From the human T2T-CHM13v2.0 reference genome, Homo sapiens: 64,000 bases of DNA. The DNA lies in the NCBI RefSeq assembly GCF_009914755.1, contig NC_060936.1. One strand, written 5' to 3'. The translations under genes were made by a program, and so were the position numbers. The notes under the pieces were generated by a model. It was not told the origin of the DNA, ran no database searches, and saw only the letters and a program-made list of their open reading frames with translations. Shown one piece after another: positions 16,901-53,662 of the stretch (positions are counted from its first letter, which is position 1; each line of letters begins with the position of its first letter).

Positions 16901-19900
16901 TTAATGCATTGCTTACTGAGGAAAGAGGAAAAGTGTTGGCAGTTCCTGATGTTTTTCTCCGTCTTGGATATTGTAGGTGTCACTTCCAGGAAAGCCAGAC
17001 AGCCATGGCATGTCAGGAGGGGGGTTGGGTCCCAGGACAAAACCTATGAAGTGAAGATGAACCCACAACATAGGAGTCCTGCAGTGAGCCCAGCCTGCTC
17101 TCCACAGAGATGTGAGCTGCCCTCTCCCAGCCAAGCCCTGGTGTGGGAACAGATGTGAGGAGGCAGGGGCAGGTCCCTGAGATCCCTCCTCTGGGCATAA
17201 TTTGCTGGAGAGGAGATCACAGAGAAAACATCTGCACAGCCTCTGTTATCTCCTTAGGGGAGCGGGAGCCCCCATCACACACACACACACACGCGCACGC
17301 ACACACACGCACACACGATGCTTTTTAGTTTGGGCTTTCCTGACCAGAAAAATTCCTTAACATTGTTTCTTAAACGTTTTAGGCTGTAACCAACAGTCAT
17401 AAAAATGTTTTCTGGTGAGATTCAGTGTACACATACATCTATTGACAATTACACAAGTGTTTCAAGACACTGCTTATAATAAAGCTGCCCAGAAGAGGGC
17501 ACTGGTGGCAAAGCCAGGCCTGAGATTTTTGTCCTTGCTGGAATTTTTGGAGGATTTTAGCTGCGGATCTAGATCCATTAGAAGGTGGTGACATCCATTT
17601 GGTCGGTTATGACTAACCCTTAGAAGAATAGCATAGCGCAGCACAGCACAACAGAAACTATCAGAATGCATCAAATGTCACAAAGGTAAGCACTGTGTTG
17701 GGAAACACTTGTTTCATTGCCAATAGATGTGTGTATCTGGGGGTCACCTTGTGAAACGTCTTATGACTGTGGGTGGCATTTACAGCAGTTTGAGACACAG
17801 TGTTTAGAAGCTTTCCTGAAAAGATGTCAGAGTGAGGAAGGACTAGCCTTGCAGACTTTTGAAGACAGGAAAGGTGTGGCTGGAGGTGGTGGGAGGGGAC
17901 ACCAGGTGCCCCACCCTGAGGAGTGTGGGGAGAGCGGCAGCCAGGCCAGCACAGCATGCGGCTTCCTGGGGTCCAGTGCTTTCTCCTCAGGAACTGGATG
18001 GGAAGAGTAGCAGAAGCACCTCTTTTTCCCCAGCATAGAAAGAAGAATCGAGTGAGTAAGGAAAAGCATGGAAAGAGTCCCAACCAGCGGCGCTTGACAA
18101 ATCACTCAACTGCCCTGTGCCTTCATGTCCCCATCAGCAAAATGGGGCGGTGGGGGTGACAGACCTTCTACTTTTCTGACTAAGTGAAACACAGTCAATA
18201 TAAAAAAGGGAAATACCCAAAGCTCCTTATGAGATAACAGTCTCTAAATTGATTTTTAGGGAATACAAATTAATACCTGACCACCTTCCCTAGAAATCAG
18301 GAAAAGCATATAATTTAACCTATGTTGGTTTTCTAGAGTGCTTGGTGCACCGAGGCACCTGCTAAATCATGCCTTAAGGAGATCCCACAAACTAGTAAAC
18401 TAAGAGGGTCTCAGGAGAGGAAGATAACACAGAGAGTTTCTCATTAATTGCCCTAGAGTGGCGGAACCCCGAAGGGTACAGGCATTCAGAGAAGGTTGAG
18501 GGCAGGGTGACCTTAGTAGGTACCATGCACAGGGTCAAATACTAGCTGGATCTGCAAGAGCCGGGGTGATTTGCATAAGAAGAAAATATAATAGGGAGGC
18601 CTTAGCTAGCTGAGAGTAAGAGCAAGTCTTGAAGGTATAAATACTGCGGTCTGCACTCTACCAGCCTTCCTGCACATCTATAAATCATCCAAGTCTCTGT
18701 GCTGTGCCATGAGCAGGCATGGAGTCACCCTCAGAGGTGTAGGGTGGCACCAGGGACCAGCAAGTCAGTGGTCTCATCTGGGAATGAGGTTGGAATGCAG
18801 CTGTGCTTCTTGAACTGCAGGCTGACCCAGCAGAGATTGTGAATCAAAATTTTAATAAAAATAGAACAGACTAAAGTGGACTGGGACTCACCAGGGTGCA
18901 ATGCATGCACTGAGGGTAAGCAAAGGGCATGAGGCTTCATTCCATCAGGTGTGTCTGTGCGTGATGAGAAGCTGTCAAATCTACTTCTCATCGAGTTTCC
19001 ATCAAAGGCCTGGAAGCCATAGACTAGATGCCCCATGAGGTCCCTCACAGCCCTGCTGTTCACCTACTGAGTGACCGTAGAGTGGTTGTAGGCAGCTGCT
19101 TATGTGCTCTTGCTGATGAGGGGGTGGCAGGGCGGGAGAAATCGGGGGACGGGCATAAGTTTGGGTGAAAGTTGAGGGTCACTGGGGAAAACAGCATCAG
19201 CTCATGCAAACACGGGAGCCAAGGCCATTCCCCAAAAGAACTTCATGGGCCTAGGATTCTTTCCGCTTTCTCAACACCTTTGACCCCAGAGTGCCTTCAC
19301 TGCCCCAAGTCAGAACTGCAGGCTTATGAGACAGGCTGCGGGTGAGGAGCTGGCCATTCCCACTGAGCAGGCCTGGAAGATGCCAGGGGCAGGCCAGAAC
19401 TTCTTGGGTAGGCAACTTCCCCAAACCTGCATGTAAGCACAAAGTGGGCGTCCCTTCACTAAGGATCAGAGCAAAGTGCTTTCTGGGGGTGCAGCTGCCC
19501 CTGTGGGTGGCCACTTCTCAGCCTCCAGGAACAAGCCCCATGAGCTCTCTGTTCCAGGCTCTCCTACCAGGATGACGAAAATCGGCAACTGATGCTCCCA
19601 GAGGAGGACAAGAGGGACATCCGGCAATCTCCAAAGAGGGGTTTCCTCCGCTCTGCCTCACTAGGTAAATGCACTGCTCGCTCTCTGGATGTGGTCGGTG
19701 GTTACTCCCTAGAGAACACTGGTCAGGGATGATTGGGAAATCGTTGTGGCCTGCCTCAAATCAGCCCCACACAGTGGGGGCATTTCCAAAGCAAGGAGAC
19801 AACATTCCAAAGGCAGGGTGTGCAGGGATGAGCCCTGGACACCAGAATACGTCTCAGACGAGGGGAGGGGAAAGGAGGAGTGTCTCGGGCCATAGTTACT

Positions 19901-22740
19901 GCTCCTGGCACCCCACCAGAGTGTGAATTGTCACAGGCCAGCGTCCTGTTTTCCTGCCCTGATCCTGGCTCTCTGGCTGGCTTTGCAGGTCAAAGAGCCT
20001 CCTTCCACCTGGAATGTCTGAAGTGACAGAAGGACCGAGGGGGAGACATCTCTCAGAAGACAGTCCTGCCCTTGCATCTGGTTCATCATCAGGTAGCTCA
20101 CACTTTTGGACAGGCCACTGTCACCTGCCAGCAGGCCAGACAGTCCCCAGGGTGATGGACAAATCCTGAAGACATCAGTGGGTCTTCCCTGTCTCGATGG
20201 CTGGCACGTCCAGGAGTCCAGGAGAAACAGGTCTTTCCATGCCCAAGTTGGTACCTTTTTGGGTGAGAACACTCTGAAAATGAAGACTCTGTAAGTTATT
20301 TTGAGCCACACAAGATCAGAGATAGCCATGTCCAAGCATATTTGTGTCTGTCCACAATTGCAGGCTTTTATTCATTTATTTCCATAATAAAAGTCGTGAG
20401 CTACATGAAGGGTCCAAGGAGACAATTCTCCATAGAGCCTATTTCTACAAAGGAATTACTCATAGCAAGAGTGCTATGTACAGAAGTCATCCAAAGGGAC
20501 GTGTAAAGTAACCAACCTTTGGATGGTTACTTTACACCATCCTTTACAATAGGCCTGACAATACACGCCCACCACTCCTAAAGGCAAAGAAATAGAACAA
20601 ATGTTTAGGAGAAGGATAGAGTGGAACCCTGGTCGTCGGGGTTTTTAACCTCATCAAACCATCATAGAAAAGGTGGCAAAGGAGGATGACGGCATCTCTG
20701 TCCCTAGAGGCCTAGAATAATTAAAATATATTTAGAAACAATTCAGCAAAGAGGCCACAAAAGGGGCCTGCTGATTCCCAGAAGACCTCTTTAAATCCCA
20801 AGGGAGGAAACTACTTGCTGATGGAGCCTGGGCCAATTTTGTTTTTTAAACAAGATCTGCCTCTGAGGCAAATGTCAGCACAGAGAGGACTGGGAGGAGA
20901 ATGGAGGCAAGAAAAGGGCATAGTTTGACTCCCTCTGTGTCTCTTCCCAGTTCATGGAGGGACGTGTTCAGCTCACTCACCTACAGTGACCAGTGTGGTG
21001 GAGCCGCTGACATCTCAAAGATCTATTTGGGAAGGTGAGAAGAGTACTCGTTCCATCTGGGGGTGTTGTCCCAGCCACGTCAGCCTAGCTGGTGGGATGT
21101 GGGGGTGTCTGCCGCCCTGTCCCCCCTCTGCTGATGTCCCTCCCCTCAGGCTGTCCAGGTGCCACCTGACACAGGCTGCTGTGCAAAGGCAGGCGGGGAA
21201 GCCCAAACCTCACTCCCAGGGAGGCCTCAGCCGCCAGAGTCCAGGTTCTCCAGAGGCTACGATTTGAAGAGGTTAAGGGGGAAGATAGGAGGGAAAGAAG
21301 AGTCCTACAACTGTCAGGAATGGGGCACCTTTCCCTGTAACTAAGCAAAGCTCCCTCTTCCCACTGCCCTCCCCAGCCCCAGCTCCCTGTCCTCCCCAAC
21401 ACCTAGTGAGAAAGACGGTGCGTGGAAGGGAGTCCCATGGGCAGATGCTTACACGGCCTCTTTGCGAAGCTTCTTCTGGGTTTAACTTCATTCATCAATT
21501 TATTTTTATGTCAAAGCAATGAAACGTTTCTTTCTGGAGCCAGATACCAATATAACAGGTGAACGGGTTTCTGCCACATCTCTACATTGACGGGGGATGC
21601 TTGAACCACCTCCCCAGGACACACACCGTTAAGGCCCAAGGGCTGGGGTTGAGCTCTAGATAAGGGAATTGCCTACACCTGGAAGGGTGGACACTGCGTA
21701 GACAAACATGGAGGGAGAACCAGAGTGACTTCCTTGTGTAAAAAATTGACTTTCTTGGGGGAGACGAAAACCCAGAAATAATACAAGGTCAACACATGCA
21801 ATACTAAATTCAATACTTACATGCTAGCAATAAATAACTGGAAATTTTAAATGTTGCAAAAATTACATTTATAATACTTCTGAAAAATGAAATTCTTAGG
21901 TATACAAGATTGTCTACTCTGAAAACTTAAAAAGTGCTATAAACAAAATCAAAGAAGGTCTAAATAAATGAAGAGATATTCACGGATGGGAAGATTCAAC
22001 ATAGTAAAAATTTCAATTCTCCCCAGATTGATCTGTAACTTAAATACAAATCCATCAAAATCCTAGCATAGGATATTTTGTCTATATAGACAAACTGATT
22101 TTTAAATTTATATGCAAAAGTGAAGGTAAAAAGATGAATTTAGTTTCATTTAGATGAAAATACTGTGCTACAGTATTTTAAGTCCTACTTTAATGCAAGA
22201 GTAATCACAATCATGTGGTTTATTGAAGGAATGGACACAGAGACCAATGGAACAGAATACAGAGTACAGAAATGAATCTACACAAATATGGCCAAGTGAT
22301 TTCTGACAAAGGTGCAAAAGTAACTCAATAGAGAAAGGGCATTTTTTCCACAAATGCTATGGGAATAATGGAATTTTCATGTGCAAAATTTGAACCTCAA
22401 CCTGAAATTCCTCCTAATATCAAAATTAGTTCCAAAGGGTCACAGATTTAAATGTAACATGCAAGACTATAAAACTTTTAGAAGAAAACATAGGAGAAAT
22501 ATTCAACATCTAGTTCTTAGACATGACACCAAAATAACAATTCATATGTGGAAAAACTTATAACATGGACTTCATCAAAATGTGGGACTCTTGATCTGTG
22601 AAGGATCCTATTAAGAGGATGAAAAGACATGCTACAGACTGAGTGAAAACATCTGCAAGCCATATAGCAGACAAAAGACTTATATCCAGAATCCATGAAG
22701 AACTCTCAAAACTCAACACATTTTAAAAAAAAACAATCTC

Positions 22741-28492: not shown

Positions 28493-30149
28493 CAAATGTT
28501 CCTTTTTGATGAGACTTGAGCATTGAGGGAAAATTGTTTTTCTGCTTTTGCCAGACAAGTAAACAAAACAACAACCAAAACAAAACAAAAATGTGAGACT
28601 GAGGGAAGCGCAAATGGGCCATTGAGGAAGTTGGGGTAGAAAACAGCGTCTTTTGGGGGCCTGAATAGAATGTTGTAGGTCTGCCAAGCCAGATCATGTT
28701 AGATCATCACCTCTTCGATTCCATGCTTCTGGTCAACCTACCCTGTGAGCTAACATGCCCTAACCCAACTTCTCTAACTCTACAGCAGATGCAAGAAGAA
28801 AATTAGCTTTTATGGAACACAGGAAATCTTCACAAGTATCCCCCAGACTTAAAACACACATGAAACTATATGAAGATGAGATTCCCAGCTCTACTTTCCC
28901 CTTCCCAATCCCCTTTAGCATAACCATTGTCAAGGCCAGGTGCTGACCAGGTGTGATTTCCTCCAGCTGTTCTTCCCTTTTGTTCCCCATGACCTGTCTA
29001 ACCAGAGAAATACAGCTGACATAGCCACAGCCTTCCAGTACAGAGGAGAGTGCATGCCAGCCCCTTTCATGTCTTCTTCCCATATGCCTAGTTCACAGAC
29101 CTCATGAATGAAGAAAGAGCTTTAGGCCCTAGGTCCTGGGAAGTTAACATTTTTCTCAGGACCCAAGATGAGATTTCAGTGATCAGCAGATAACCAAGAG
29201 GAAATCAGGTTTGCAGCTGCTGGCCTTAACAGGAAGATTTAAACAGTCAGGACATCCAAATACCAACTCCATCCGCCAACTGTCCCCTGTATCATCATTC
29301 CCTTTCCATGATGGCCAATGACCTTGCATGGAAATCCTTCTTGAGTTGAAGGAAAAAGCTATAACCAGACCAAGTCCTCAAGCTATACCTGAGTCCTCCA
29401 TTAGTCTGATGGGATGCTTCCTTGCATGGCTTCAGCTCTGCAGGAATTCAGAAGAAAGGTGCCCCCTCTGGTCAGAGCAGAGAAAGCTTCCCCTAAAGAG
29501 CCACTCCTGGCTGTGATGCCCACTGCAACAGGTAAAGAGCTACACTTTCTCTTCCCCTGCCTCCAGCTCCCCTGCTTTCCCACATCACTCCTGCTTTTCA
29601 GCTATGTCCTCTGCCTCCTGAATTACCCTGTACCCGAGTACCATTCTTCCTGGGCCCCAGCCCTGTTAAAGCCCTTCACATGCCTTTTTCCCAGTCTCCA
29701 TATTTTCATATCTCACTCTCCATTCAAATACTTTTACTACCCAAACTTCCTTCCAAATTTTTCCTAACTTAAAAAAATCTTTCAGTGGTTCTCTTTTCTT
29801 CAGTTTAATCTTCACTCAAACTTCCTGACAGTCTAGTCCCCTTTAAATCCGCCAGTTCTCAACGTCCCCAGTCGCTTAAAACCCATTTATTTCCTCCTTT
29901 GCCCCTACCGATGGTCTGGTTACTCCTTTTTTGCTCCAACATTCTCCAAAACTTTCTCAAGCACAGATATCGTTCCTTCGTCATCCCCAAATCTCCTGTC
30001 ACGCTTTTGTCCCCAAGCGTCTTCTCACCCCTTCACGCCACATCACCCCGGTCCTTTAGACTCCTGCGCATTCTATTTCCCCGTTTCCTTCTCACACCCA
30101 CTTTCTTCCCTGGCTCCCACCACAGCAGTGCCCATCTGCTCCTCCCCGC

Positions 30150-30970
30150 TCACTCAGGTCTCCTGCTCAGGACGCCCTTGCCGAGGGCGCGGGGCATTTG
30201 TACTGAAGAAGGGCTGCAGGAGAGTCGGTGACCCCTCCTTCTACTTGTATGTAGCGGCCCCAAGTGTCCCGGGAGCTGGTGGGGCGCTTGGGCTGTATGA
30301 GCCCGGCAGCCAGGAGGCTGGGGCTGCGCCAGGAGCTGTCCGTGGTGCTTAAGCGGCGTCGCTCGGGCGCGGGGTGTGGCGCGGCGGGTGAGCGCTGTCC
30401 CTGGTCCTGGAGAGGTTCCTGGCCCCCAGTGGCAACGGTGAGAGCAGTGGCCCAGAAGGCCAGTACCGGGAACGACGATGGCGGGCACAAGGGTGGGCTT
30501 GCAGCAGCTGCTGCTGGTGCTCCCACAGGCTGCGGTTCTCCGCGCTCAGCTCATCCAGCCGCCGCTCCTGCTCGTCGATGCGCTGGCGCTGGATGTGGAC
30601 GAGGCTCTGCTGGTTCTGCACGATGGATGGCCCAGAGCCCTTGAGGTACAGCACGGCGCGCACCGGGTTTTCCAGCAGGCTCTCGATGCCACCCACCGCC
30701 GCCTGCGCCCTGCCTGCCCCTGGGCTGGCGCCTGGGAGCGCGAGGGCGCGGGAACCCAGCAGCCCAGCGGTCCTCTCCCACGGGCCCAGCCTCCCTCCCG
30801 CCGCCAGCGCCGCGTCACCGCCACCCCGATTGTCACACACTCACCACGGGGAGAGGCCGCGGCCCAGAGCACCCCTTCCTGTCTCTTGGCGTCCAGAGGA
30901 GGCTCTGCCTCCCGCTGGGCAGAGAGGAGAGGGAGGGGGCCAGCGAGAGGGAGCCTGTGTCGGGGCGTGG
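30150..30970. promoter_or_regulatory. CpG island (duplicated IQSEC3 promoter/exon 1)
   Basis: GC-rich and CpG-dense relative to the CpG-depleted flanks. Confidence 0.75.
30154..30687 (-). pseudogene. IQSEC3P1: Unprocessed pseudogene copy of IQSEC3 first coding exon
   Basis: [23 protein letters not shown]...[18 protein letters not shown] / [18 protein letters not shown] / HHGQLL...ALGKGVLSRRPE, spread over frameshifted frames. ATG mutated to ATC (30685-30687); GTGAG donor retained at 30153. Symbol assigned from recalled locus order. Confidence 0.9.
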
Positions 30971-44670: not shown

Positions 44671-45463
44671 GAAATAAATAAAGGGAGGGAGTCAGTGTCC
44701 ACCTTTGGGCCAGATATTCCAGGGGCACAGTGATCATCAATGAGTGCCCCGTGGAAGAATGATAATCTCCTGGGTGGAGGAGAGGCTGCCTCACCTAGCA
44801 GCCCTTCCTCTGATGAGGCCTTCCTTTTTGTTTTTCTTAGAGATGACAAGAGGGCCTTACATAAAACTTCCAAGCCTACAGCCTCCCACCCTCTCAAAAA
44901 CAACAACAGTTGACAGCCTTCAAAGAGCTCTTTACCACACTGGCCTGTCCCTCTGTGGATCTGGACTCCTCCTTCTGCATCACCTCTGACGGGGGCAGGC
45001 AGAGCATGCTCCAGTAGCAGGTGAGAAGCAGCTTTGTTCTACTATCCAGCTCAGAGAGCGACAGGAACTTCCTAAGATCTGGGATGAGACAGAGGTGTGA
45101 CCAGAGAGCAGAGCCCAGGAATGCCACTGAGGAGAGGGGACTTCATATTATAGAGAGGGATGCCAGAGGCCAAGGGATAGGCAGGGGCCAGACACGGGTG
45201 CGTCTGGTTCAAAGCCCACACTCTTCCGGGGTCCTCCACCCACAAGAAGAGACGGGAGCCACAGGACTCTGGACTGCATGTCTGCCCAGCATGGAGTGTG
45301 GCCCACATGAGCAGATCCACCCAGATGACGTTCCAGAGGGACAGAGAGGCTGCTCCCCTCCTCACCCAGAGGAAGATTCATCCCTCAGCTTGGAACTCCA
45401 TCCCTTCCACAGTCAGCCCCACAGCCCAGCCCCACTTCTCCTCCCTTTCAAACAAGCCCTCAC

Positions 45464-45623
45464 CCTCCAGGATCTGCAACATCTTGGGAACCTCCCACAT
45501 CCACAGCTGGCCCACATTTGACTTGATGACGGGGTGCAGGGAGGCAATGGGATGCGGAGCATATAACAGCTTTAGGGTGTTTTTTCCAAATGCCTTTTCT
45601 CTGTAGGGCTTCAGGGAGAACAA
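45464..45623 (-). pseudogene. MROH-like exon LFSLKPYREKAFGKNTLKLLYAPHPIASLHPVIKSNVGQLWMWEVPKMLQILE
   Basis: ttcag|...|gtgagg, 160 nt; cf. MROH1 VVSSSPYLGDGRGAAALRLLSVLHPNIHPLLGQHWETTVPLLLGYLD. Confidence 0.82.
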
Positions 45624-45905
45624 CTGAACAGCCAGAGAAGCAAATGGGAGGCAGAGAAGAATGAAGGCAAAGAAGAAAATTAGAACAAACCCATGGAATG
45701 GTAGAGCTGAAGCTGAGCCCTCCCATTCTTTTCCACCTGCTGAACAAGTTCCCCAAAATGCCCTCAGATGCCACCTCCTCTGTGACGCCCTCCGTGACTC
45801 CTGGAGGCCAAGTTATCCATTGCTCTGCTAAGATCCCATTGCACTTGTTAGTACCTCTGTCACCTTTAACTGTGGGTGGTGAGGTTACTCCCAGGTTTGT
45901 CTCCC

Positions 45906-46612
45906 TCACTAGCACTGTGAACCCCTCAAAGCCAGGTGTATATCCTGTCTCTCCACTAGCACTGTGAACCCCTCGAAGCCAGGTGTATATCCTGTCTCTC
46001 CACTAGCACTGTGAACCCCTCGAAGCCAGGTGTATATCCTGTCTCTCCACTAGCACTGTGAACCCCTCGAAGCCAGGTGCACATCCTGTCTCTCCACTAG
46101 CACTGTGAACCCCTCGAAGCCAGGTGCACATCCTGTCTCTCCACTAGCACTGTGAACCCCTCGAAGCCAGGTGCACATCCTGTCTCTCCACTAGCACTGT
46201 GAACCCCTCAAAGCCAGGTGTATATCCTGTCTCTCCACTAGCACTGTGAACCCCTGAAGCCAGGTGTATATCCTGTCTCTCCACTAGCACTGTGAACCCC
46301 TGAAGCCAGGTGTATATCCTGTCTCTCCACTAGCACTGTGAACCCCTCGAAGCCAGGTGTATATCCTGTCTCTCCACTAGCACTGTGAACCCCTCGAAGC
46401 CAGGTGTATATCCTGTCTCTCCACTAGCACTGTGAACCCCTCGAAGCCAGGTGTATATCCTGTCTCTCCACTAGCACTGTGAACCCCTCGAAGCCAGGTG
46501 TATATCCTGTCTCTCCACTAGCACTGTGAACCCCTCGAAGCCAGGTGCACATCCTGTCTCTCCACTAGCACTGTGAACCCCTCGAAGCCAGGTGCACATC
46601 CTGTCTCTCCAC
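45906..46612. repeat. 47-bp minisatellite, ~15 copies
   Basis: CCACTAGCACTGTGAACCCCTCGAAGCCAGGTG(TATA/CACA)TCCTGTCTCT. Confidence 0.97.
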
Positions 46613-46984
46613 GTGTTCTTTATGTCTGTCACAGCACTGGGAAAATTAAGAAACTCAAAACATGCTTGCTGAGAAAAGGAGGTCCAGAAAGGCAGGGGGA
46701 CTTGTCCCAGGTCAACAGAGAGAAGCTCACAACAAGGCCACACAGAGAAGACAGCCAGGCCCTCCCTATGTCCTCTGCCTCCCCCTGTTCCAGTCCTACC
46801 ACTACGTGCCCAGGGCCCCACCTCCAAGCCCGTTGGCCTGAGGCGCCTCTTCCCAGGACCCCCGTGACCCTCGGCCCTCCCTCCTCACTCCATATCTGGC
46901 ATCAGGCCTGGAATGGAATGGCCCTGGGCTACTGTGAACTGATTGGATGGATGACACCATGTCCATCTCAGCACCACTATCCAC

Positions 46985-47025
46985 AAGGTGGGTCAGTAGT
47001 CTTTGTGGGGAGATGACCTTTGAGG
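46985..47025 (-). pseudogene. MROH-like exon PSKVISPQRLLTHL (acceptor lost)
   Basis: Polypyrimidine tract ends in CAC rather than CAG; cf. MROH1 ASLPSPYAVTGRLL. Confidence 0.65.
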
Positions 47026-47195
47026 GTGAGTTAAAGAGAGGGCAACAGAAGAAGACACAGTAAGGGTGAGCTCCCGGGAGCCCACCTCCAGCCCCCACTG
47101 GCATCCCCCATCAGTTCTTCAGAGCAGGAGTACAGGCAAAGAGGAAATGAGCATCAGTGTCCATGCCGAGGCCTTGTGACATCTCCACTCAGCCT

Positions 47196-47231
47196 AAAGA
47201 CCACCACTGCATGTTCCAATCACCTCGTGCT

Positions 47232-47264
<33 letters not shown>

Positions 47265-47870
47265 TTTTAGTCATTAACTTCTATATTACAAATGCTAAAT
47301 CAATAGATTTTGTATATTCATTAGTATTATCTATGTAAACACTCAAGTTACCTGCAGGTAGAGAAATATTTATTTTTTCCATTCCAAATTATTATGCTTT
47401 TATTCCTTTTTCTTGCTTTATTCTAATGCCTGGGACCTTCAGAATAGAAGTGATAGGGGAGTGCATTCTTGCCATGTTCATAAAGTTATGAAAACAATAT
47501 TCAGTCTTTCATTATGCACTATAGGGTAAGCTTTAGAATTTTGTCATTTCCAGAATTTTATATGATTTTAAATGATTGTCATTTCCAGAATTTTATAGAA
47601 ATCTAATTATGAAACATGTGCTCTTTTTTGTCTTATTTTTCTACAGAGCATCATTATTTTGAGATTCATCAATGTTGCTATGTATAATTAATTCATTTAT
47701 TTATATTTCTCAGTATGTTGCTCATTTCCTTATATTGTTCACTATGTTGCACAGATATAATGGAACATTTCACCTGTTCACCTCTTGATAGACATTTGGT
47801 TTACTTCCAGTTTGGGCTACTACAAATAAAGCAGCTATAAAAAAAAAAAAAAAAAAGACCACCACTGCAT
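47196..47870 (+). mobile_element. L1-mediated retro-insertion of a polyadenylated non-autonomous RNA (orphan transduction-like)
   Basis: Perfect 17-bp TSD AAAGACCACCACTGCAT (47196-47212, 47854-47870); AATAAA at 47825-47830; poly(A). Body is (TA)n plus antisense ancient L1M-like sequence. Confidence 0.85.
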
Positions 47871-48380
47871 CTTCAGCTTTAACAACAGTGACCACACCAC
47901 TGAGGAAGTGCTGAACAGACACCCTCACCGCTTCTCTAGCCCCACTGGGTTTAGAGGTCAAGGATGGGACAAGTATAGAGCCAGGCTCAGAGTGGGGCAA
48001 AAAGAGGACAAAGGAGCAGGACTGTCAGTGCAGCCATGAGTTTGTAATTAACAAGAGTGCTTTTCCACCTGGATGCCAGTGTTGTGAAAAGAGGACTAAA
48101 GGTGACAAGGAACTGGTTCTACGGTGGCTCCCTTCCAAAGGAGGCTCCCTTTCTCCACTGCCAGGGGCTAATTGCCTCAGGCTGCTCCCTGACCTTTGAC
48201 CTTCCCCTTCTCATCCTGGCCCTGGCTCAATCTGTGGCCTCATCCCCACCGCAGAGCTGTACCCTCTCCCCATCTCACACCCGTGCAGGGCCTCAGCCTG
48301 CCCCCACTGCCCTCCATGCCTGCAGCAGCTGGAGCCTTCCTGGCTGCCCCTCCCCATAGACCACCCAGCCTTGTACTCAC

Positions 48381-48525
48381 GCCTGCCATGGAAGCTGCTG
48401 AGGTAAGGGTGCGGCCCCAGGGAGTGGGCCTGCAGAGCCACCTTCCTGGCTGCCTTGCTGAGGACCACGAAGGCCGAGATGTGGCTTGGTTGGCATAGAA
48501 GGTTTATGAGTACCGGCAGGGACAC
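48381..48525 (-). pseudogene. MROH-like exon VSLPVLINLLCQPSHISAFVVLSKAARKVALQAHSLGPHPYLSSFHGR
   Basis: ccag|...|gtgagt, 145 nt; same 48-residue length as MROH1 VLWPYLLQFLTP...IQYDAH. Confidence 0.8.
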
Positions 48526-48766
48526 CTGGCAGGCGACACGCAAGGACCTCAACTCCAAGCCCAAATCAGTCCCCGTCATGAGTTCTCCAACCCCACAACC
48601 CTGGATCCCTTTCCTGGAGGGGCAGTAGAGGCCTGGACACACAGCCCGCTCTTCCCATGTGCTCACAGAGTCTCTGACTCCATCTCTGACTCTCCCTCTC
48701 TCGCTCTCTCCTCTCTTACCCCTTATTGCTAAAAGGTAACCAAGGTCCTTATGAAAATCACTATAG

Positions 48767-49170
48767 GCTGGATAAAGAAAATGTGGCACATATACATAAT
48801 GGAATACTATGCAGCCATAAAAAAGGATGAGTTCATGTCCTTTGCAGGGACATGGATGAAGCTGGAAACCATCATTCTCAGCAAACTAACACAAGAACAG
48901 AAAACCAAACACTACATGTTCTCACTCATAAGTGGGAGTTGAACAATGACAACACATGGACACAGGGAGGAGAACATCACACACCAGGGCCTGTCGGGGA
49001 GTGGGGGGCTAGGGGAGGGATAGCATTAGGAGAAATACCTAATGTAGATGACGAGTTGATGGGTGCAGCAAACCAACATGGCACATGTATACCTATGTAA
49101 CAAACCTGCACGTTCTGCACATGTACCCCAGAACTTAAAGTATAATAAAATAAATAAATAAATAAAAGAA
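48767..49170 (+). mobile_element. L1PA 3' end (5'-truncated)
   Basis: WIKKMWHIY...ISGS*; 3'UTR; A-rich tail; flanks GAAAATCAC. Confidence 0.93.
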
Positions 49171-49386
49171 AATCACACTAGGAAGGACGTGTTTAAACAG
49201 AGGGGCTTCTTAAAATTTGAAATTGTGCGACTTGTTATCGCCTTCACTGGGGAACATTCCAGAGAAGAGGAAATGTTAAAGGTCAGGAGACAGGGCTTGC
49301 TTGGAGGGAGAGCAGTTGTGCCTCCAGGAGGAGAGGAATTCACAGTCCTCCTACAGAAGGGGCAAGTGCAGCCCAGAGAGCAATGT

Positions 49387-49630
49387 ACTCAAGGGTCCAC
49401 AGCTAGAAACTGACCGAGGGACTCAAGGGTCCACAGCTAGAAACTGACCTAGAGACTCAAGGGTCCACAGCTAGAAACTGACCTACAGACTCAAGGGTCC
49501 ACAGCTAGAAACTGGCCGAGGAACTCAAGGGTCCATAACTAGAAACTGGCCGAGGGACTCAAGGGTCCACAGCTAGAAACTGGCCGAGGGACTCAAGGGT
49601 CCACAGCTAGAAACTGGCCGAGGGACTCAA
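49387..49630. repeat. 34-bp minisatellite (~7 copies) inside a MIR-like core
   Basis: ACTCAAGGGTCCACAGCTAGAAACTG(A/G)CCGAGGG. Confidence 0.95.
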
Positions 49631-49866
49631 ACTCAGGTCTCCAGAGTTACCTTCAATGCCCGTCTTTCGCTCCACTGAGTCACGTCTCAGAAGAGACCCC
49701 GACCTTTGAGCAGAAACAGATGGAGATCAGAAGGGGAGGAAGAGACACTACAAGGGGCTAGATGGAGGGGAGGGAGGAAGAAGGCAGTCTAAGGGGGCAG
49801 AATAGTGATCTTGGGAGGCAGGGGAGGAGGAAATGGAGAGGCCTCTTTGGCCCTACCTGTATGTAC

Positions 49867-49911
49867 CATTTGTAGAATCTTGGCACACATCTGCTGGGTA
49901 TCTTCTTCATT
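49867..49911 (-). pseudogene. MROH-like exon NEEDTQQMCAKILQM
   Basis: Strong polypyrimidine tract ccag|...|gtacat, 45 nt (an out-of-frame alternative donor lies at 49856). Confidence 0.7.
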
Positions 49912-50138
49912 CTGGAGAAACAAAAGAAAGGATCAAGACATGGAACCAATGCCAACTGAATCTCCCAGGTATTGGCCTCCCCTGGCCCACTGATCAGGGG
50001 TGTGGATGCCAAAGCACCTCCCTGTCAGGCCAGCCAGGCCCCTATTCTGTGTCTCTGCTCCCACCCCTTCCCTTCTCTGTCCCCTGCCCCTGGCTCACTC
50101 CACCCTCGGTCCCCTCACTTGCACCAGGTCCTGCTCAC

Positions 50139-50255
50139 TGAGGGCTCTGGCTGGCTGAGCCCAACAAGGTGGTGGATGATGATGTTCCCCTGGGGCAGAG
50201 TCATGTAGCTGTGCTGCCCCAGCGTCTTGATGAAGCTCAGCAGGGGCATGTGTAC
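50139..50255 (-). pseudogene. MROH-like exon VHMPLLSFIKTLGQHSYMTLPQGNIIIHHLVGLSQPEPS
   Basis: aag|...|gtgagc, 117 nt; cf. MROH1 VKRAVVQVISAMAHHGYLEQPGGEAMIEYIVQQCALPPEQE. Confidence 0.82.
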
Positions 50256-51201
50256 CTTTGGGTCACAGACCATCACATGCATGACAGGAAGGGGCTGCAG
50301 GATGGCCTCTTGTTCCAGGTGAGCACACAGTGGACCAGAGCAGGTCAGGGAGGTCTTCAAGGACCTCAGGCCTCCTGACTCCAAGTCCACTGTGACTCTT
50401 CAGTGGGTGCTGTGGCTGTGACAGACCACCCGTGACTGGACCTGCCCACTTCTGTCCTCTGCTCTGAAGTTCCGATCCACTCCAGCTCTGTCATCCTCCT
50501 GGAGAACTCCAAGAACTTACTTCCCATACTTCATATGCCCGCAGATACTGAAATTGGCAGGAGTGTTGGTGGAGGGGAATCCAAGTGAAGGAAAGGTCTC
50601 ATGTTTTGGCCTCTGTAGGGAAAGCCAGGAAGCAATCTGGCAAGTCCTGAGGGCCCAGCCCTCAAGAGCCCAGCCTCCTGTGACCCTTCTGGAAATTGGG
50701 CCCTTGTTTTTCAGGCTGATGCATTGTTCTCTATTTAACACTCAAAACCAGCATGCCCTGCTGCAGCTATCCCAACGCACTGTCCTACACCATCCAGAGC
50801 TGGGAGTCTCTGCTGCCTGCACCCCTGACTGCAGAGCTGCTTAAAAATACAGCTTCTCAGGTCCCACTCCAGCCATGAAGCCCAAGGCTTTCTCCTCCCA
50901 AGAAACCTGTGGGTTCTTGGGGCCTGAGTCAGTGTCATTTGGAGCCCTGAGGACACAACAGTGCCGCCCACAGAACAGGCTCAGAAGGGGGCATTTAGGC
51001 ACCACCTCTCCACTTCTCAAACTCTTCTCTGGTTTTAAAGAACCCAAATGGAACTGAAGGACAGGGGTCTGAGCCTGAATTGGCTTGATGAGGGTGCCTT
51101 CCTACTCATTCCCTATCTCCCTCTCCTCTCCATTTACATGACACCAGGGTCTCAAGAAAGCAATTGCCCTCCCAGCACAGACACACGGCCTCTATGCTCA
51201 C

Positions 51202-51275
51202 AGGTCTCAGATCTTTCTGTATCAGCAGAACCACTGAACTCATCACCTCCTTCTTCAAGGTCTCCCTCTGGGGCA
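51202..51275 (-). pseudogene. MROH-like exon PQRETLKKEVMSSVVLLIQKDLRP
   Basis: ttttctctag|...|gtgagc, 74 nt; cf. MROH1 AQMEDKKPFILSSMRLPLLDTNSK. Confidence 0.8.
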
Positions 51276-52253
51276 CTAGAGAAAACACAGGCGTGCAGCT
51301 GGAGGTCAGCCTCCACCCCGCCTCTGCTGCTTGGGGAGACATCAGATGACAGCCGGGCGGGAGGAACACCAGGTACAGTCCTGGCCGTCAAAGGCCAGGT
51401 GGAGTCTCCACAGGCATCTCAGCCATCCCTGTGCCTCCAACCACACTGAAACCCACCAGCCTGGCCAGTACTTTCCACAGGAGGGCATTTGAGCCCCAAC
51501 CCTCGCTGGTCTCCATGACTGCCCACACAAATCCGCCTCTCCAGCCAAGCTGTCCTCTCCTCTGTCCATCTCAACCTTTCCAACCTCAGCTGCTGCTCCT
51601 CTCCCCTGTGGCCTCCTTGTCCTGATCCATGGTCACAGGCTCCTCTCTACTTTTGGCCCATCCCCTCTGTAAAGCCCACCCCGGCTTCCCTGACCTCCTC
51701 CTGCTTGCCTTCCTGTCGGCATCGCCGCTCCCGTCTAAGCAGCCCAGTGCATGTTGTCCCGCACTGTCGCCATGTGGACAGCCTCGCCCCCTACCCTACA
51801 GTGAGCTCGCTAAGGGCAGGGGCTGTCTTCTGTATGTGTATTCTCCGTGCCTGTCACAGTGCTTAGTGCACAGCGAAAGCTTAACATCCATACCTGACTG
51901 GAGGTGAAGCCTGCTCTTCCAGGCGGTAATCACAGATAAACCACTATAAAACCAGCTGCAGAGCAGGCCCTGTTCTCAGCACCTCACATTTATTCACTCC
52001 ACCCTCACTAAAAATCCCTAAAGGTAACAATTATTTTTACCTCTGTTTTTCAAATGAGGAAATAGAGGCACAGACTAAAAGTCATTTGCTCTAGGCCACA
52101 TAGCTAGTGAGAAGCACAGCCAAGATCCCAACCCACTGAGATGACTGCATTTAAAATCGTGCTTCTAACTACTATACCAGACTGTCTCCAGAGAAAGGAG
52201 ATTTCCTGGGAACGATCAAGTCCTAGAACCCCAGGACCATGCCCCATTCCCAC

Positions 52254-52370
52254 TCCCTCTACAGGACACATCCCTGAAGACTTGCGGGGTTGTCACTGCC
52301 TTGGCAGACTCCTCGGGTTTGACGATGTTTTCCAGCAAAATCACCAGCTGATCCCTGCCATATAACTTGG
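52254..52370 (-). pseudogene. MROH-like exon (T)KLYGRDQLVILLENIVKPEESAKAVTTPQVFRDVSCRG
   Basis: tag|...|gtggga, 117 nt; cf. MROH1 ACSSPDRLLAFLLPRLDTSNERTRVGTLQVVRHVINSA. Confidence 0.8.
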
Positions 52371-52923
52371 CTATCAGAAGGATGTGAATACAGGGCAGTC
52401 AGGGGTATGTTTAAACGGGAGGTAATACCCAGGCTTAAATCATGCTCACAGCAAACCACTGACCATGACTTGGATGAAAGAAAAAGAAAGAGAACCAGGT
52501 CCACCCAGCATTTGCCATGTGCCGAGCATGTGCCAGGTGCCCCTCCTGCCCCACATACCTGCCCACAGGCAGCACACTGTGCCCATCAGTGCTGTCCTGT
52601 CATAAGCACCTTTCTGAAATAGGGATCATGCCAGGAGAAAGGGGAGTCAGCCCCAGGTGAGGCAGTGGGAACAATAGGGGTGGGGTGGGGCCATGGCTAT
52701 GCCCTTTCTGATTCACTCAATTTCAGGCAAAGTTCTCATTAATTACTTTGAATCTTGTCTCGGAGGTTGGAACCCCCACCTTCCCATAGGAACCTAGGCC
52801 CCAACTCCGGCCCAGGGAGAGACTAAAGGGGTCCTGAGTTCACATGTGGGCACACACACATGCATGCATGTGCACACACATATGCACACGCACACACATG
52901 GCTAGGAAAACATATGAACTTAC

Positions 52924-52999
52924 TCAGTATGTTGAAAGCCCTCAGAGCTAAGCTATGGTTCAGCATGGAGTAACAATCCGAGTAGTATTTGCCACTTAT
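52924..52999 (-). pseudogene. MROH-like exon ISGKYYSDCYSMLNHSLALRAFNIL
   Basis: tacag|...|gtaagt, 76 nt; cf. MROH1 ICVPVESSSPLVMSNQKEVLRCFTVL. Confidence 0.8.
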
Positions 53000-53563
53000 C
53001 TGTAGGGAGACCAAGGCCTTCAGGCCCAGGAGGATGGAAACCAGGGATCCTACATGTGGAGGAGGAAACTGAGGCATGAAGCCATGCAGTGCATGGCACC
53101 AGGCTGTAAGGAGAGCAGAAAAGTGGAGCCCAGGAATCCACTCCCGGCCCCAGAGGGAACAAGACAGAGGCCAGCCAATTAAATATAAGGAAGGCATCAT
53201 CCTTTTGCAAAATGTTCAATTGTCCTCTGCCTACTCCACAACACAGAAGACCTGGCACCTCCCACGGGCTGAAGGAGGGCCTTGAACCTTCTGCCTTTTC
53301 CCTAGAGTCCAGGGGGAGCCACAGAGGCTTGTCACCCCAGAAAGCACACAGGATGTATCCAAGTTACCTCATGGAAAACGTCCCACTCTGTGCCCAGAAT
53401 CCAGGCATTTGCCTGTTTCAGAGAAGCCTGCAATGTGTGCAGCAAAGGTCACCATGTCAAAGACCCCTGTACCGTCTGGAGATGGTGACCTGGTCTGAGG
53501 AAGTCATCACCACCAAAGAAGAGAGAGGGCAAGGACAGGATGCCTCCGGCCTGCCGCACCCAC

Positions 53564-53662
53564 CAGCTGGAACAGCACCCCTGTGATATTCCCCAGCTGG
53601 GACTCCAAGTTAACACCTCCACAGCCACTGAGAGCCAGAGTCTCGGCCAGCTGGCAAATGCA
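53564..53662 (-). pseudogene. MROH-like exon CICQLAETLALSGCGGVNLESQLGNITGVLFQL
   Basis: cag|...|gtgggt, 99 nt; cf. MROH1 SLGQILEAAVSVGSRTLETQLDALLAALHSQ. Confidence 0.8.

What the first reader, a model, noticed from the sequence alone, without database searches (positions are those of the whole stretch)
45464..53662. Hidden nine-exon MROH-family gene remnant, almost intact
Seen: nine minus-strand segments with phase-compatible boundaries join into ~290 codons without a stop: CICQLAETLALSGCGGVNLESQLGNITGVLFQL|ISGKYYSDCYSMLNHSLALRAFNILT|KLYGRDQLVILLENIVKPEESAKAVTTPQVFRDVSCRGM|PQRETLKKEVMSSVVLLIQKDLRP|VHMPLLSFIKTLGQHSYMTLPQGNIIIHHLVGLSQPEPS|NEEDTQQMCAKILQM|VSLPVLINLLCQPSHISAFVVLSKAARKVALQAHSLGPHPYLSSFHGRP|SKVISPQRLLTHL|LFSLKPYREKAFG...PKMLQILE. 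Eight have AG/GT ends; the 41-nt exon has CAC in place of CAG. Known (recalled): the order, phases and several lengths (74, 145, 41 nt) match consecutive MROH1 exons, at low amino-acid identity. Inference: an ancient distinct MROH paralogue, neither a retrocopy nor a recent duplicate, lost fairly recently. I do not recall it being annotated here.
Basis: partly seen in the sequence, partly recalled or inferred. Interest (0 to 1): 0.85.

Follow-up and report, generated by a model that had tools for sequence, protein, structure and literature searches.

The report
Unannotated remnant of lost MROH gene
Between CACNA1C and FKBP4 the human genome keeps ten still-open exons of a HEAT-repeat (MROH-family) gene that many other placental mammals appear to retain, an ordinary kind of gene loss that is unusually well preserved and not in the RefSeq table given.

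Summary
The nine minus-strand segments exist at the stated coordinates and join into 291 codons without a stop. A tenth exon (45078-44936) joins in frame, giving 1017 nt, or 339 open codons.

A profile of 21 orthologues finds exactly these ten pieces, collinear, with E-values from 1.5e-23 to 0.053. Every other hit in the window has E of 14 or more.

Predicted 1400-1700 aa proteins of this lineage occur in carnivores, bats, camels, rodents, xenarthrans, manatee and strepsirrhine primates. No named haplorhine model was found. Human identity is 46-57% to most orthologues and 23% to MROH1. Intron positions and phases match human MROH1, including the 74, 145 and 41 nt exons.

"Almost intact" is wrong. 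Only about 21% of the coding length is here. The 5' part, about 240 internal codons and the 3' half are missing.

More decayed fragments of the same lineage lie at chr12:9.34 and 30.17-30.93 Mb.

Verdict: an unannotated unitary-type pseudogene remnant. Its exon 6 acceptor is reused by ITFG2-AS1.

The parts
53564..53662 (-). Remnant exon 1 (99 nt, phase 0 to 0). Orthologue similarity continues upstream to about 53671.
   Evidence: coordinates, AG/GT; HMM 256-292, E=7.7e-13; tblastn reaches 53668.
52924..52999 (-). Remnant exon 2 (76 nt), one codon shorter than in the orthologues. The human MROH1 counterpart is 79 nt.
   Evidence: (HMM 298-320, E=0.053).
52254..52370 (-). Remnant exon 3 (117 nt), two single-codon insertions relative to the orthologues. 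The MROH1 counterpart is 114 nt.
   Evidence: (HMM 315-351, E=0.0071).
51202..51275 (-). Remnant exon 4 (74 nt). The MROH1 counterpart is also 74 nt.
   Evidence: (HMM 350-382, E=3.2e-07).
50139..50255 (-). Remnant exon 5 (117 nt). The MROH1 counterpart is 123 nt.
   Evidence: (HMM 378-419, E=2.2e-09).
49867..49911 (-). Remnant exon 6 (45 nt). Its acceptor at 49911 is the acceptor of ITFG2-AS1 exon 49857-49911, which uses a donor 10 nt further on.
   Evidence: HMM 418-435, E=0.014; hub annotation table.
48381..48525 (-). Remnant exon 7 (145 nt). The MROH1 counterpart is also 145 nt.
   Evidence: (HMM 426-481, E=5.8e-16).
46985..47025 (-). Remnant exon 8 (41 nt). The acceptor is CAC instead of CAG, the only point lesion in the block. 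The MROH1 counterpart is also 41 nt.
   Evidence: (HMM 479-496, E=0.037).
45464..45623 (-). Remnant exon 9 (160 nt, ends in phase 1). It is the best conserved exon and on its own matches Pfam PF23210.
   Evidence: PF23210, E=0.007, 15.1 bits, below the cut-off of 27; 74% identity to felid proteins; E=1.5e-23.
45079..45463 (-). A 385 nt intron-like gap that stands where exons for about 240 codons (HMM 552-792) should be. It is a frame-preserving deletion junction.
   Evidence: no hit for HMM 552-792; no match to this part of the protein elsewhere in the genome at E<=1 apart from exon 10 and a weak chr8 paralogue hit.
44936..45078 (-). Remnant exon 10 (143 nt, AG/GT, starts in phase 1). It extends the open frame to 339 codons.
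   Evidence: (HMM 793-850, E=2.3e-13).

Best explanation
This is the largest surviving piece of a lost (unitary-type) protein-coding gene. The gene is a member of the maestro HEAT-like repeat (MROH) family and is a separate, old paralogue of MROH1.

In many placental mammals the gene is predicted to encode a HEAT-repeat protein of about 1400-1700 aa. In the lineage leading to humans it was disabled mainly by structural damage. The exons for the first ~255 residues, ~240 internal residues and the last ~800 residues are no longer at the locus.

What remains is ten consecutive exons (window 53662-44936, minus strand), all inside the HEAT_Maestro_2 domain. They still form one 339-codon open frame, with one mutated acceptor (exon 8, CAC).

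The locus is now transcribed only as non-coding RNA. ITFG2-AS1 reuses the acceptor of exon 6 with a shifted donor.

Shown: the exon anatomy, the homology, the paralogue status, the single-copy status and the missing parts. Inferred: that the orthologue models are functional genes, that the loss happened on the haplorhine stem or later, and that the block is no longer translated.
For: Anatomy: nine exons, 874 nt, 0 stops; tenth exon, 1017 nt, 0 stops.

Homology:
- Exon 9 alone finds 15 predicted proteins of 1386-1700 aa in felids, hyena, hippopotamus and camels at 68-75% identity, with E down to 9e-16 against 5.8 billion sequences (16 of 16 candidates reported).
- tblastn with nine different orthologues hits the same exons in order.
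- The profile search gives ten collinear hits and nothing else below E=14.

Family:
- The orthologue Microcebus P0055 carries PF23210 (aa 235-872, 289 bits), PF21047 and PF23227.
- The human block maps to aa 265-555 and about 803-852 of that protein.

Distinct paralogue:
- The tree has 27 rows and 336 columns. The human sequence falls inside the orthologue clade (100/99 against MROH1 and MROH2B) and is sister to the strepsirrhines (79/64).
- Identity is 46-57% to 20 of 22 orthologues and 23% to MROH1.

Old DNA-level duplication: human MROH1 exons homologous to remnant exons 2-9 are 79, 114, 74, 123, 108, 145, 41 and 142 nt. The remnant exons are 76, 117, 74, 117, 45, 145, 41 and 160 nt. Every difference is a multiple of 3 and the phases are the same.

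Single copy: window 50100-53700 matches only itself, apart from short low-complexity hits.

Structural loss:
- No hit for HMM 1-255, 552-792 or 851-1652 in the window.
- No hit in the 9 kb between the window and FKBP4.

Relaxed constraint: the human sequence keeps 91 of 118 columns (77%) that are at least 90% conserved. Seven of eight orthologues tested keep 88-96%. The human end branch is 0.55 against 0.33-0.41 for the lemur paths.

Non-coding use:
- The ITFG2-AS1 exon 49857-49911 shares the exon 6 acceptor but not its donor (hub table).
- An ORF from an unnamed transcript record (P0016) covers 45794-45525 with non-ancestral exon edges.
Against: The block is better preserved than a long-dead pseudogene should be. 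It has 0 stops and 0 frameshifts in 1017 nt, and every length difference from the orthologues is a whole number of codons.

A neutral simulation gives P(no stop)=0.20 at 5% divergence and 0.026 at 13%. Adding my assumed frameshift-indel rate, the joint probability is 0.066 at 2% and 0.0011 at 5%.

The dispersed fragments elsewhere on chr12 show 7 stops in 453 matched codons as the tool counts them. About 4 remain if only stops that split a profile-contiguous alignment are counted. Their identity to the profile consensus is nevertheless the same as the window's: 57.1% against 56.9%.

No named haplorhine model was found, so the structural break may be old. That is hard to square with an open frame unless the block stayed under selection for some time.

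Orthology rests on sequence and the tree only. Synteny in other mammals could not be tested with the tools at hand. The orthologue proteins are automatic predictions, not verified proteins.
Confidence: 0.82

Rival explanations
1. The ten exons are still, or were until very recently, coding. After the gene lost its ends, a truncated MROH-like HEAT protein continued to be made from this block, possibly from an unannotated transcript.
For: - 339 codons are open across ten exons. 19 of 20 splice dinucleotides are canonical.
- The exon 9 to exon 10 junction across the deletion keeps the frame.
- All length changes against the orthologues are whole codons.
- Neutral drift of more than about 3% is improbable under my assumptions.
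- The region is transcribed (hub table).
Against: - The exon 8 acceptor is CAC, and skipping this 41 nt exon shifts the frame.
- No in-frame ATG lies upstream of exon 2 in the open stretch.
- The two transcripts seen do not follow the ancestral exon edges (hub table).
- 27 of 118 conserved positions are changed, about twice to six times the share in intact orthologues.
- The RefSeq table has no coding model here.
Confidence: 0.1
2. The block is not the gene's remains in place. It is a middle segment moved or copied here by the rearrangements that shaped 12p, and the ancestral locus lay elsewhere on 12p (near 9.3 Mb or 30-31 Mb). This rival concerns the history of the piece, not its pseudogene status.
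For: - Both ends of the block lack the neighbouring exons.
- Fragments of the same lineage covering HMM 17-131, 841-868, 1012-1041, 1138-1234, 1356-1509 and 1541-1642 lie at chr12:9.335, 30.167, 30.178, 30.71, 30.91 and 30.93 Mb, in mixed orientations.
- None of these fragments overlaps HMM 256-840.
- The hub table shows CACNA1C and IQSEC3 pseudogene fragments just downstream, so this interval is a patchwork.
- CHLR1/DDX11-related genes map to both 12p11 and 12p13 (PMC2705379, passages read).
- From recall only: mouse gene order differs from human exactly at CACNA1C|FKBP4.
Against: - The two copies of the N-terminal exon region (30.711 and 30.912 Mb) are only 74-78% identical over about 2.4 kb. 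At least some of the scattered pieces therefore come from a very old duplication and may be remains of older paralogous copies, not the missing parts of this copy.
- No DNA-level duplicate of the window block exists.
- No other species' gene order could be examined.
Confidence: 0.25
3. It is a recent duplicate or a retrocopy of an annotated human MROH gene, or a chance string of open frames.
For: None beyond the weak Pfam hit of a single exon.
Against: - Introns are present in all ten positions.
- Identity to MROH1 is 23%.
- Whole-genome protein searches find only weak paralogue matches, with E from 1.4e-6 to 0.7 at chr1:54.57 Mb and chr8:142.6 Mb.
- The DNA is single copy.
- Profile E-values reach 1.5e-23.
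Confidence: 0.01

Closest known systems
Predicted 'MROH1-like' genes of other placentals (for example Felis catus LOC101098061; models in Crocuta, Canis, Camelus, Castor, Dasypus, Trichechus, Microcebus, Otolemur)
   Same: Same lineage. Identity over the 336 shared columns is 46-57%. The order of the ten exons is the same, and the human sequence nests inside this clade next to the strepsirrhines.
   Different: Those models are full length (1386-1716 aa) with PF23210, PF21047 and PF23227. The human locus keeps only about 21% of that length and has no model. The names given by the sources (MROH1, MROH5, MROH7) are automatic and inconsistent.
MROH1 (HEATR7A), human chr8
   Same: Same Pfam domain (HEAT_Maestro_2). 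Intron positions and phases are the same across the eight exons compared. Exon lengths of 74, 145 and 41 nt are identical.
   Different: Only 23% amino-acid identity. It is on a different chromosome. MROH1 is intact and has invertebrate relatives (spider, starfish and sponge hits). The tree separates the two at 100/99.
MROH3P and MROH4P, the two named human MROH pseudogenes
   Same: MROH-family members that carry pseudogene symbols in humans (family list of 11 members in PMC5391009, Introduction passage read). They are a precedent for loss within this family.
   Different: They are named and catalogued, while this locus is not in the RefSeq table supplied. Whole-genome searches with lemur, galago, armadillo and cat protein parts gave their only strong matches on chr12, so this is not a copy of either. 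Their chromosomal places (chr1, chr8) are recalled, not tested.
lncRNA exons derived from dead coding exons (here ITFG2-AS1)
   Same: The ITFG2-AS1 exon 49857-49911 starts at the acceptor of ancestral coding exon 6 (hub table).
   Different: It uses a donor 10 nt beyond the ancestral one and then skips exons 7-10, so it does not carry the old reading frame.

Membership tests
MROH (maestro HEAT-like repeat) family | Match to the family's Pfam domains (PF23210 HEAT_Maestro_2, PF21047 HEAT_Maestro, PF23227) | tested here: inconclusive
   Only single exons could be scanned. One of 7 (exon 9) hit PF23210, at E=0.007 and 15.1 bits, below the cut-off of 27. The orthologue P0055 passes with 289 bits, and the human block maps inside that domain. 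The spliced peptide itself could not be sent to Pfam.
MROH (maestro HEAT-like repeat) family | Significant sequence similarity to bona fide members | tested here: met
   Ten collinear profile hits with E down to 1.5e-23. The orthologues match true MROH1 at E=7.6e-25 and MROH2B at 1.8e-10.
MROH (maestro HEAT-like repeat) family | Shared gene structure with a family member (intron positions and phases) | tested here: met
   Eight exons were compared with human MROH1. All junction phases are equal, and three lengths are identical (74, 145, 41 nt).
Orthologue of MROH1 itself | Groups with MROH1 in a tree, with high identity | tested here: not met
   23% identity. MROH1 sequences form the outgroup clade, split off at 100/99.
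Unitary pseudogene | Intact orthologue in other species | tested here: met
   Of the 75 hits, 69 belong to this lineage (E<=3.6e-48) and many are 1400-1700 aa. They are predictions only, and none was verified experimentally.
Unitary pseudogene | Orthologue lies at the syntenic position | not testable with these tools
   No non-human mammalian genome was available. The contig lengths of the cat and dog models fit HSA12p-syntenic chromosomes only by recall.
Unitary pseudogene | No functional copy of the same gene in the genome | tested here: met
   Whole-genome protein searches found only decayed fragments on chr12 and weak paralogue hits. DNA of exons 1-5 is single copy. Searches used a stricter first look, so weak matches may be missing.
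Unitary pseudogene | Disabling lesions | tested here: met
   About 79% of the coding length is missing from the locus, and the exon 8 acceptor is CAC. There are no stops or frameshifts in the retained exons.
Processed pseudogene (retrocopy) | Intronless copy of an mRNA | tested here: not met
   Nine intron-like gaps of 385-1382 nt separate the ten exons.

The most novel reading that the evidence does not exclude
After losing both ends, the ten-exon block stayed under selection for an open reading frame through much of anthropoid evolution. It may still be translated in humans as a truncated HEAT-repeat protein from an unannotated transcript. The parent gene was broken up by the rearrangements that created the CACNA1C-FKBP4 junction on 12p.
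Probability: 0.1. Interest if true: 0.7.

Novelty: new member of a known kind. Interest (0 to 1): 0.4.

Why it matters
It adds an uncatalogued lost gene to the human list. It also shows that placental mammals have an MROH-family member that current nomenclature hides under borrowed names (MROH1, MROH5, MROH7 "isoforms").

It gives ITFG2-AS1 an origin for one of its exons.

Its unusual state could be informative for how structural rearrangement kills genes and how long the leftover exons stay open. The ends are gone, ten exons remain open, and more decayed fragments are scattered over 28 Mb of 12p.

None of this changes what is known about MROH function, which is itself unknown (PMC5391009, passages read).

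Tried and rejected
1. Pfam on 7 single exons: only exon 9 gave a family-relevant hit. Exon 3 gave a chance hit to a type III secretion family at E=0.021.

2. A recurrent plus-strand tblastn hit at 45186-45293 to the exon 9 part of the protein (E 0.2-4.4) suggested an inverted copy of exon 9 at the deletion junction. The DNA repeat search found only one 14 nt, 79% complementary pair. Rejected as chance.

3. A recurrent minus-strand hit at 17230-17129 to aa ~1146-1181 (E 1.7-5) might have been a decayed 3' exon. It has no profile hit, needs an 8-residue gap, and has no DNA similarity to the 30.178 Mb copy of that exon. Rejected.

4. A 9 kb DNA search of the genome was swamped by one high-copy repeat (window about 48763-49172; 6187 candidates, 40 scored). 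It was repeated with a repeat-poor 3.6 kb piece.

5. blastn of all fetched loci against the window gave only interspersed repeats.

The part-protein genome searches found nothing there at E<=1.

8. Literature: 6 papers mention ITFG2-AS1 (listing and abstract starts only). Searches for a maestro HEAT-like pseudogene, unitary pseudogene plus MROH, and MROH gene loss in primates gave nothing on a chr12 MROH remnant.

Full report
**Observation**

On the minus strand I read the region and cut the nine segments by coordinate. They are 53662-53564, 52999-52924, 52370-52254, 51275-51202, 50255-50139, 49911-49867, 48525-48381, 47025-46985 and 45623-45464.

They are 99, 76, 117, 74, 117, 45, 145, 41 and 160 nt long. 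Together they give 874 nt and 291 codons without a stop, with compatible phases. Eight acceptors are AG and exon 8 has CAC. All nine donors are GT.

**Is it more than chance?**

Scanned alone, exon 9 gave a weak match to Pfam PF23210 (HEAT_Maestro_2): E=0.007, 15.1 bits, below the cut-off of 27. The other six exons long enough to scan gave nothing relevant.

A search of 5.8 billion proteins with exon 9 returned 16 of 16 candidates. Fifteen are predicted proteins of 1386-1700 aa from felids, spotted hyena, hippopotamus and camels, at 68-75% identity and E down to 9e-16.

tblastn of nine such proteins against the window hit the same exons in protein order.

I built a profile from 21 orthologues (1652 positions) and searched all 3723 six-frame ORF pieces of the window. 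Ten hits came out, all minus strand and collinear, at E=7.7e-13, 0.053, 0.0071, 3.2e-07, 2.2e-09, 0.014, 5.8e-16, 0.037, 1.5e-23 and 2.3e-13. The next hit had E=14.

**A tenth exon and an internal deletion**

The tenth hit (profile 793-850) is an exon at 45078-44936. It is 143 nt, with a ...cccag acceptor and a gtaaag donor.

It lies only 385 nt after exon 9, although about 240 residues of protein separate the two exons in the orthologues. Exon 9 ends in phase 1 and exon 10 starts in phase 1. The junction therefore keeps the frame, and the ten exons give 1017 nt, 339 codons and no stop.

A genome-wide search with that missing part of the protein found no copy of it elsewhere. It is probably deleted.

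**What is missing**

The profile finds nothing for positions 1-255, 552-792 and 851-1652 in the 64 kb window. It also finds nothing in the 9 kb between the window and FKBP4.

The window therefore holds about 354 of 1652 positions. "Almost intact" describes the block, not the gene.

**What the gene is**

With a cat protein (region 270-900) as query, 75 proteins passed E<=0.001 among 6696 candidates. Sixty-nine of them (E<=3.6e-48) belong to this lineage. They come from:
- Carnivora, bats, camels, hippopotamus, hedgehog, mole and shrew;
- armadillo, tamandua and manatee;
- squirrels, beaver, kangaroo rat and gopher;
- three strepsirrhines (Microcebus, Otolemur, Lemur).

The other six are true MROH1 (24% identity, E=7.6e-25), invertebrate MROH1, MROH2B and MROH2A.

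A search for shorter models returned 43 proteins among 7999 scored. It added Eulemur and Nycticebus, horses, elephants, seals and a sloth. Again there was no named haplorhine, mouse or rat.

The source names are automatic and inconsistent (MROH1, MROH5, MROH7, "uncharacterized").

Pfam on the Microcebus protein gives PF23210 at aa 235-872 (289 bits), PF21047 at 895-1118 and PF23227 at 1346-1543. The human block maps to aa 265-555 and about 803-852, so it lies wholly inside HEAT_Maestro_2.

**Tree and divergence**

I chose 22 orthologues, about one per species, and left out isoforms and short models. I added four outgroups and the human peptide joined by script, for 27 rows and 336 columns.
- The orthologue clade separates from MROH1 and MROH2B at 100/99.
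- The human sequence lies inside it, in a group of 11 rows (99/98), as sister to the two strepsirrhines (79/64, weak).
- The human end branch is 0.55. The lemur paths from the same node are 0.33 and 0.41.

Human identity is 46-57% to 20 of the 22 orthologues, 43% to mole and 35% to shrew. It is 23% to MROH1. The gene evolves fast everywhere: Microcebus against cat is 63%.

At columns where at least 90% of orthologues agree, the human sequence keeps 91 of 118 (77%). In leave-one-out tests, seven of eight orthologues keep 88-96% and the shrew keeps 66%. The human copy has therefore drifted at conserved sites.

**Old paralogue, not a retrocopy or recent copy**

I located human MROH1 on chr8 with a part of a rodent MROH1 protein. 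I then read its exons from small fetched pieces.

| Exon | Human MROH1 (nt) | Remnant (nt) |
|---|---|---|
| 2 | 79 | 76 |
| 3 | 114 | 117 |
| 4 | 74 | 74 |
| 5 | 123 | 117 |
| 6 | 108 | 45 |
| 7 | 145 | 145 |
| 8 | 41 | 41 |
| 9 | 142 | 160 |

Every difference is a multiple of three and the phases are equal.

The DNA of exons 1-5 (3.6 kb) is single copy in the T2T genome. The best paralogue matches elsewhere are weak: chr1:54.57 Mb at E=1.4e-6 and chr8:142.6 Mb at E=0.0066. By recall these are the MROH7 and MROH5 regions.

**Lesions inside the block**

The only point lesion is the CAC acceptor of exon 8.

Orthologue models have one more residue at the exon 8/9 junction (THLV|LFSL against human THL|LFSL). 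I leave this open.

The length differences from the orthologues are -1 codon (exon 2), +1 and +1 (exon 3) and -1 at the 8/9 junction. All are in frame.

**How old is the loss?**

The evidence pulls two ways.

For a recent loss of constraint on the block:
- A simulation on the 1017 nt gives P(no stop) of 0.72, 0.53, 0.37, 0.20, 0.088 and 0.026 at neutral divergences of 1, 2, 3, 5, 8 and 13%.
- I assumed a frameshift-indel rate of 0.12 indels per substitution, 85% of them out of frame. This is an assumption, not a result. With it, the joint probability of an intact frame is 0.066 at 2% and 0.0011 at 5%.

For an older event:
- No named haplorhine model exists in three searches.
- The human sequence has lost 23% of the conserved positions.

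One way to reconcile these is that the ends were lost early while the block stayed under some selection for a time. I give that reading about 10%.

**Other fragments on chromosome 12**

The window's genome is searchable. Searches with lemur, galago, armadillo and cat proteins or parts of them, followed by my profile on 200 kb of fetched sequence, found further pieces of this lineage (45-68% identity):

| Position (chr12) | Profile positions and strand | Note |
|---|---|---|
| 9.335-9.336 Mb | 841-868 -, 1485-1509 -, 1012-1041 + | 841-868 is weak (E=0.63); the latter two abut |
| 30.167 Mb | 1581-1642 + | |
| 30.178-30.179 Mb | 1138-1197 and 1201-1234 + | the first is split by a TAG |
| 30.710-30.712 Mb | 17-38 +, 89-124 + | 17-38 is weak (E=0.38) |
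| 30.911 Mb | 1392-1445 and 1446-1478 - | |
| 30.913 Mb | 72-131 + | with stops |
| 30.914 Mb | 1356-1403 + | |
| 30.927 Mb | 1541-1598 + | E=0.015 |

None of these overlaps profile 256-840, the part kept in the window.

As the genome tool counts them, the matches hold 7 stops in 453 codons. About 4 remain if only stops that split a profile-contiguous alignment are counted. The window block has none in 339 codons. That gives a Poisson P(0) of about 0.005, or about 0.05 on the conservative count. This comparison is post hoc.

Identity to the profile consensus is equal: 278 of 487 (57.1%) for the fragments and 214 of 376 (56.9%) for the window.

The two copies of the N-terminal exon region (30.711 and 30.912 Mb) are collinear over about 2.4 kb at only 74-78% identity. 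This is a very old duplication.

So the scattered pieces are one of two things:
- the missing parts of this gene, dispersed by rearrangement, which their complementarity favours; or
- the remains of older paralogous copies, which the old duplication and the stops favour.

I cannot decide this without other mammals' gene order.

CHLR1/DDX11-related genes are reported at both 12p11 and 12p13 (PMC2705379, passages read). This shows exchange between those two regions. My recollection that mouse gene order breaks exactly between Cacna1c and Fkbp4 is untested.

**Present-day use**

The hub table lists ITFG2-AS1 exon 49857-49911. Its acceptor is that of ancestral exon 6, but its donor is 10 nt beyond the ancestral one. 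The next listed exon is at 20110-20273, so the lncRNA does not carry the old frame.

P0016 is a 177 aa ORF from an unnamed 1028 nt record. It matches window 45794-45525 at 97% identity. It starts in the intron before exon 9 and leaves from inside exon 9, which again does not follow the ancestral structure.

**Comparison with what is known**

The MROH family is listed with 11 members, including the pseudogene symbols MROH3P and MROH4P (PMC5391009, Introduction passage). Their functions are stated there to be unknown.

I found no paper that describes an MROH remnant on 12p13.33:
- ITFG2-AS1: 6 papers, listing and abstract starts only.
- "maestro heat-like repeat" plus pseudogene: 14 papers, listing only.
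- MROH3P, MROH4P, MROH2B, MROH9: 2 papers.
- "unitary pseudogene" plus MROH: 1 paper, whose passages concern MROH5.
- MROH gene loss in primates: none relevant.

Supplements were not consulted. Catalogues of unitary pseudogenes in supplementary tables could list it. Annotation sets other than the RefSeq table supplied could not be checked.

**Verdict**

This is a real, unannotated remnant of a lost MROH-family paralogue. It is a known kind of thing, and the family already has named human pseudogenes. It is notable for a 339-codon open frame across ten exons and for the scattered state of the rest of the gene. Interest 0.4.

Noticed in passing
window 45898-46612: A 47 nt minisatellite, 15.2 copies at 98% matches, in the intron between remnant exons 8 and 9.
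   Followed up: no
window 49387-49630: A 34 nt tandem repeat, 7.2 copies at 93% matches, in the intron between remnant exons 6 and 7.
   Followed up: no
window about 48763-49172: A high-copy interspersed repeat in the exon 6-7 intron. The genome search found 6187 candidates, and the 39 scored matches other than the self-match were 92-95% identical. By recall it looks like the 3' end of a young L1.
   Followed up: partly
chr12:9,335,185-9,336,097 (locus L040): Three fragments of the same MROH lineage (profile 841-868, 1485-1509 and 1012-1041) in mixed orientation. Two of them abut within a few bases.
   Followed up: partly
chr12:30,166,643-30,179,380; 30,709,603-30,712,364; 30,911,425-30,927,486 (loci L012-L031): Scattered, stop-bearing exon fragments of the same lineage covering the N-terminal and C-terminal parts of the protein. 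They are non-collinear and on both strands.
   Followed up: partly
chr12:30,711,171-30,713,583 versus 30,912,418-30,913,900: Two collinear copies of about 2.4 kb around the exon for profile 72-131, only 74-78% identical. This is a very old duplication.
   Followed up: partly
window 45525-45794: A 177 aa ORF from an unnamed 1028 nt public record (P0016) matches here at 97%. Its exon edges are not the ancestral ones, and its other exons were not found in the window.
   Followed up: partly
window 19542-20290 and 30123-30792: According to the hub table, the last ITFG2-AS1 exon (20110-20273) lies inside a CACNA1C pseudogene fragment, and an IQSEC3 pseudogene fragment lies 10 kb away. The interval below the remnant is a patchwork of pieces of other 12p13.33 genes.
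   Followed up: no
chr8:145,359,117-145,408,537: Human MROH1 exons were read here for comparison. In the longer tblastn alignment the exon homologous to remnant exon 7 is followed in frame by intronic sequence, which explains the TAG that the genome tool reported inside its match.
   Followed up: yes
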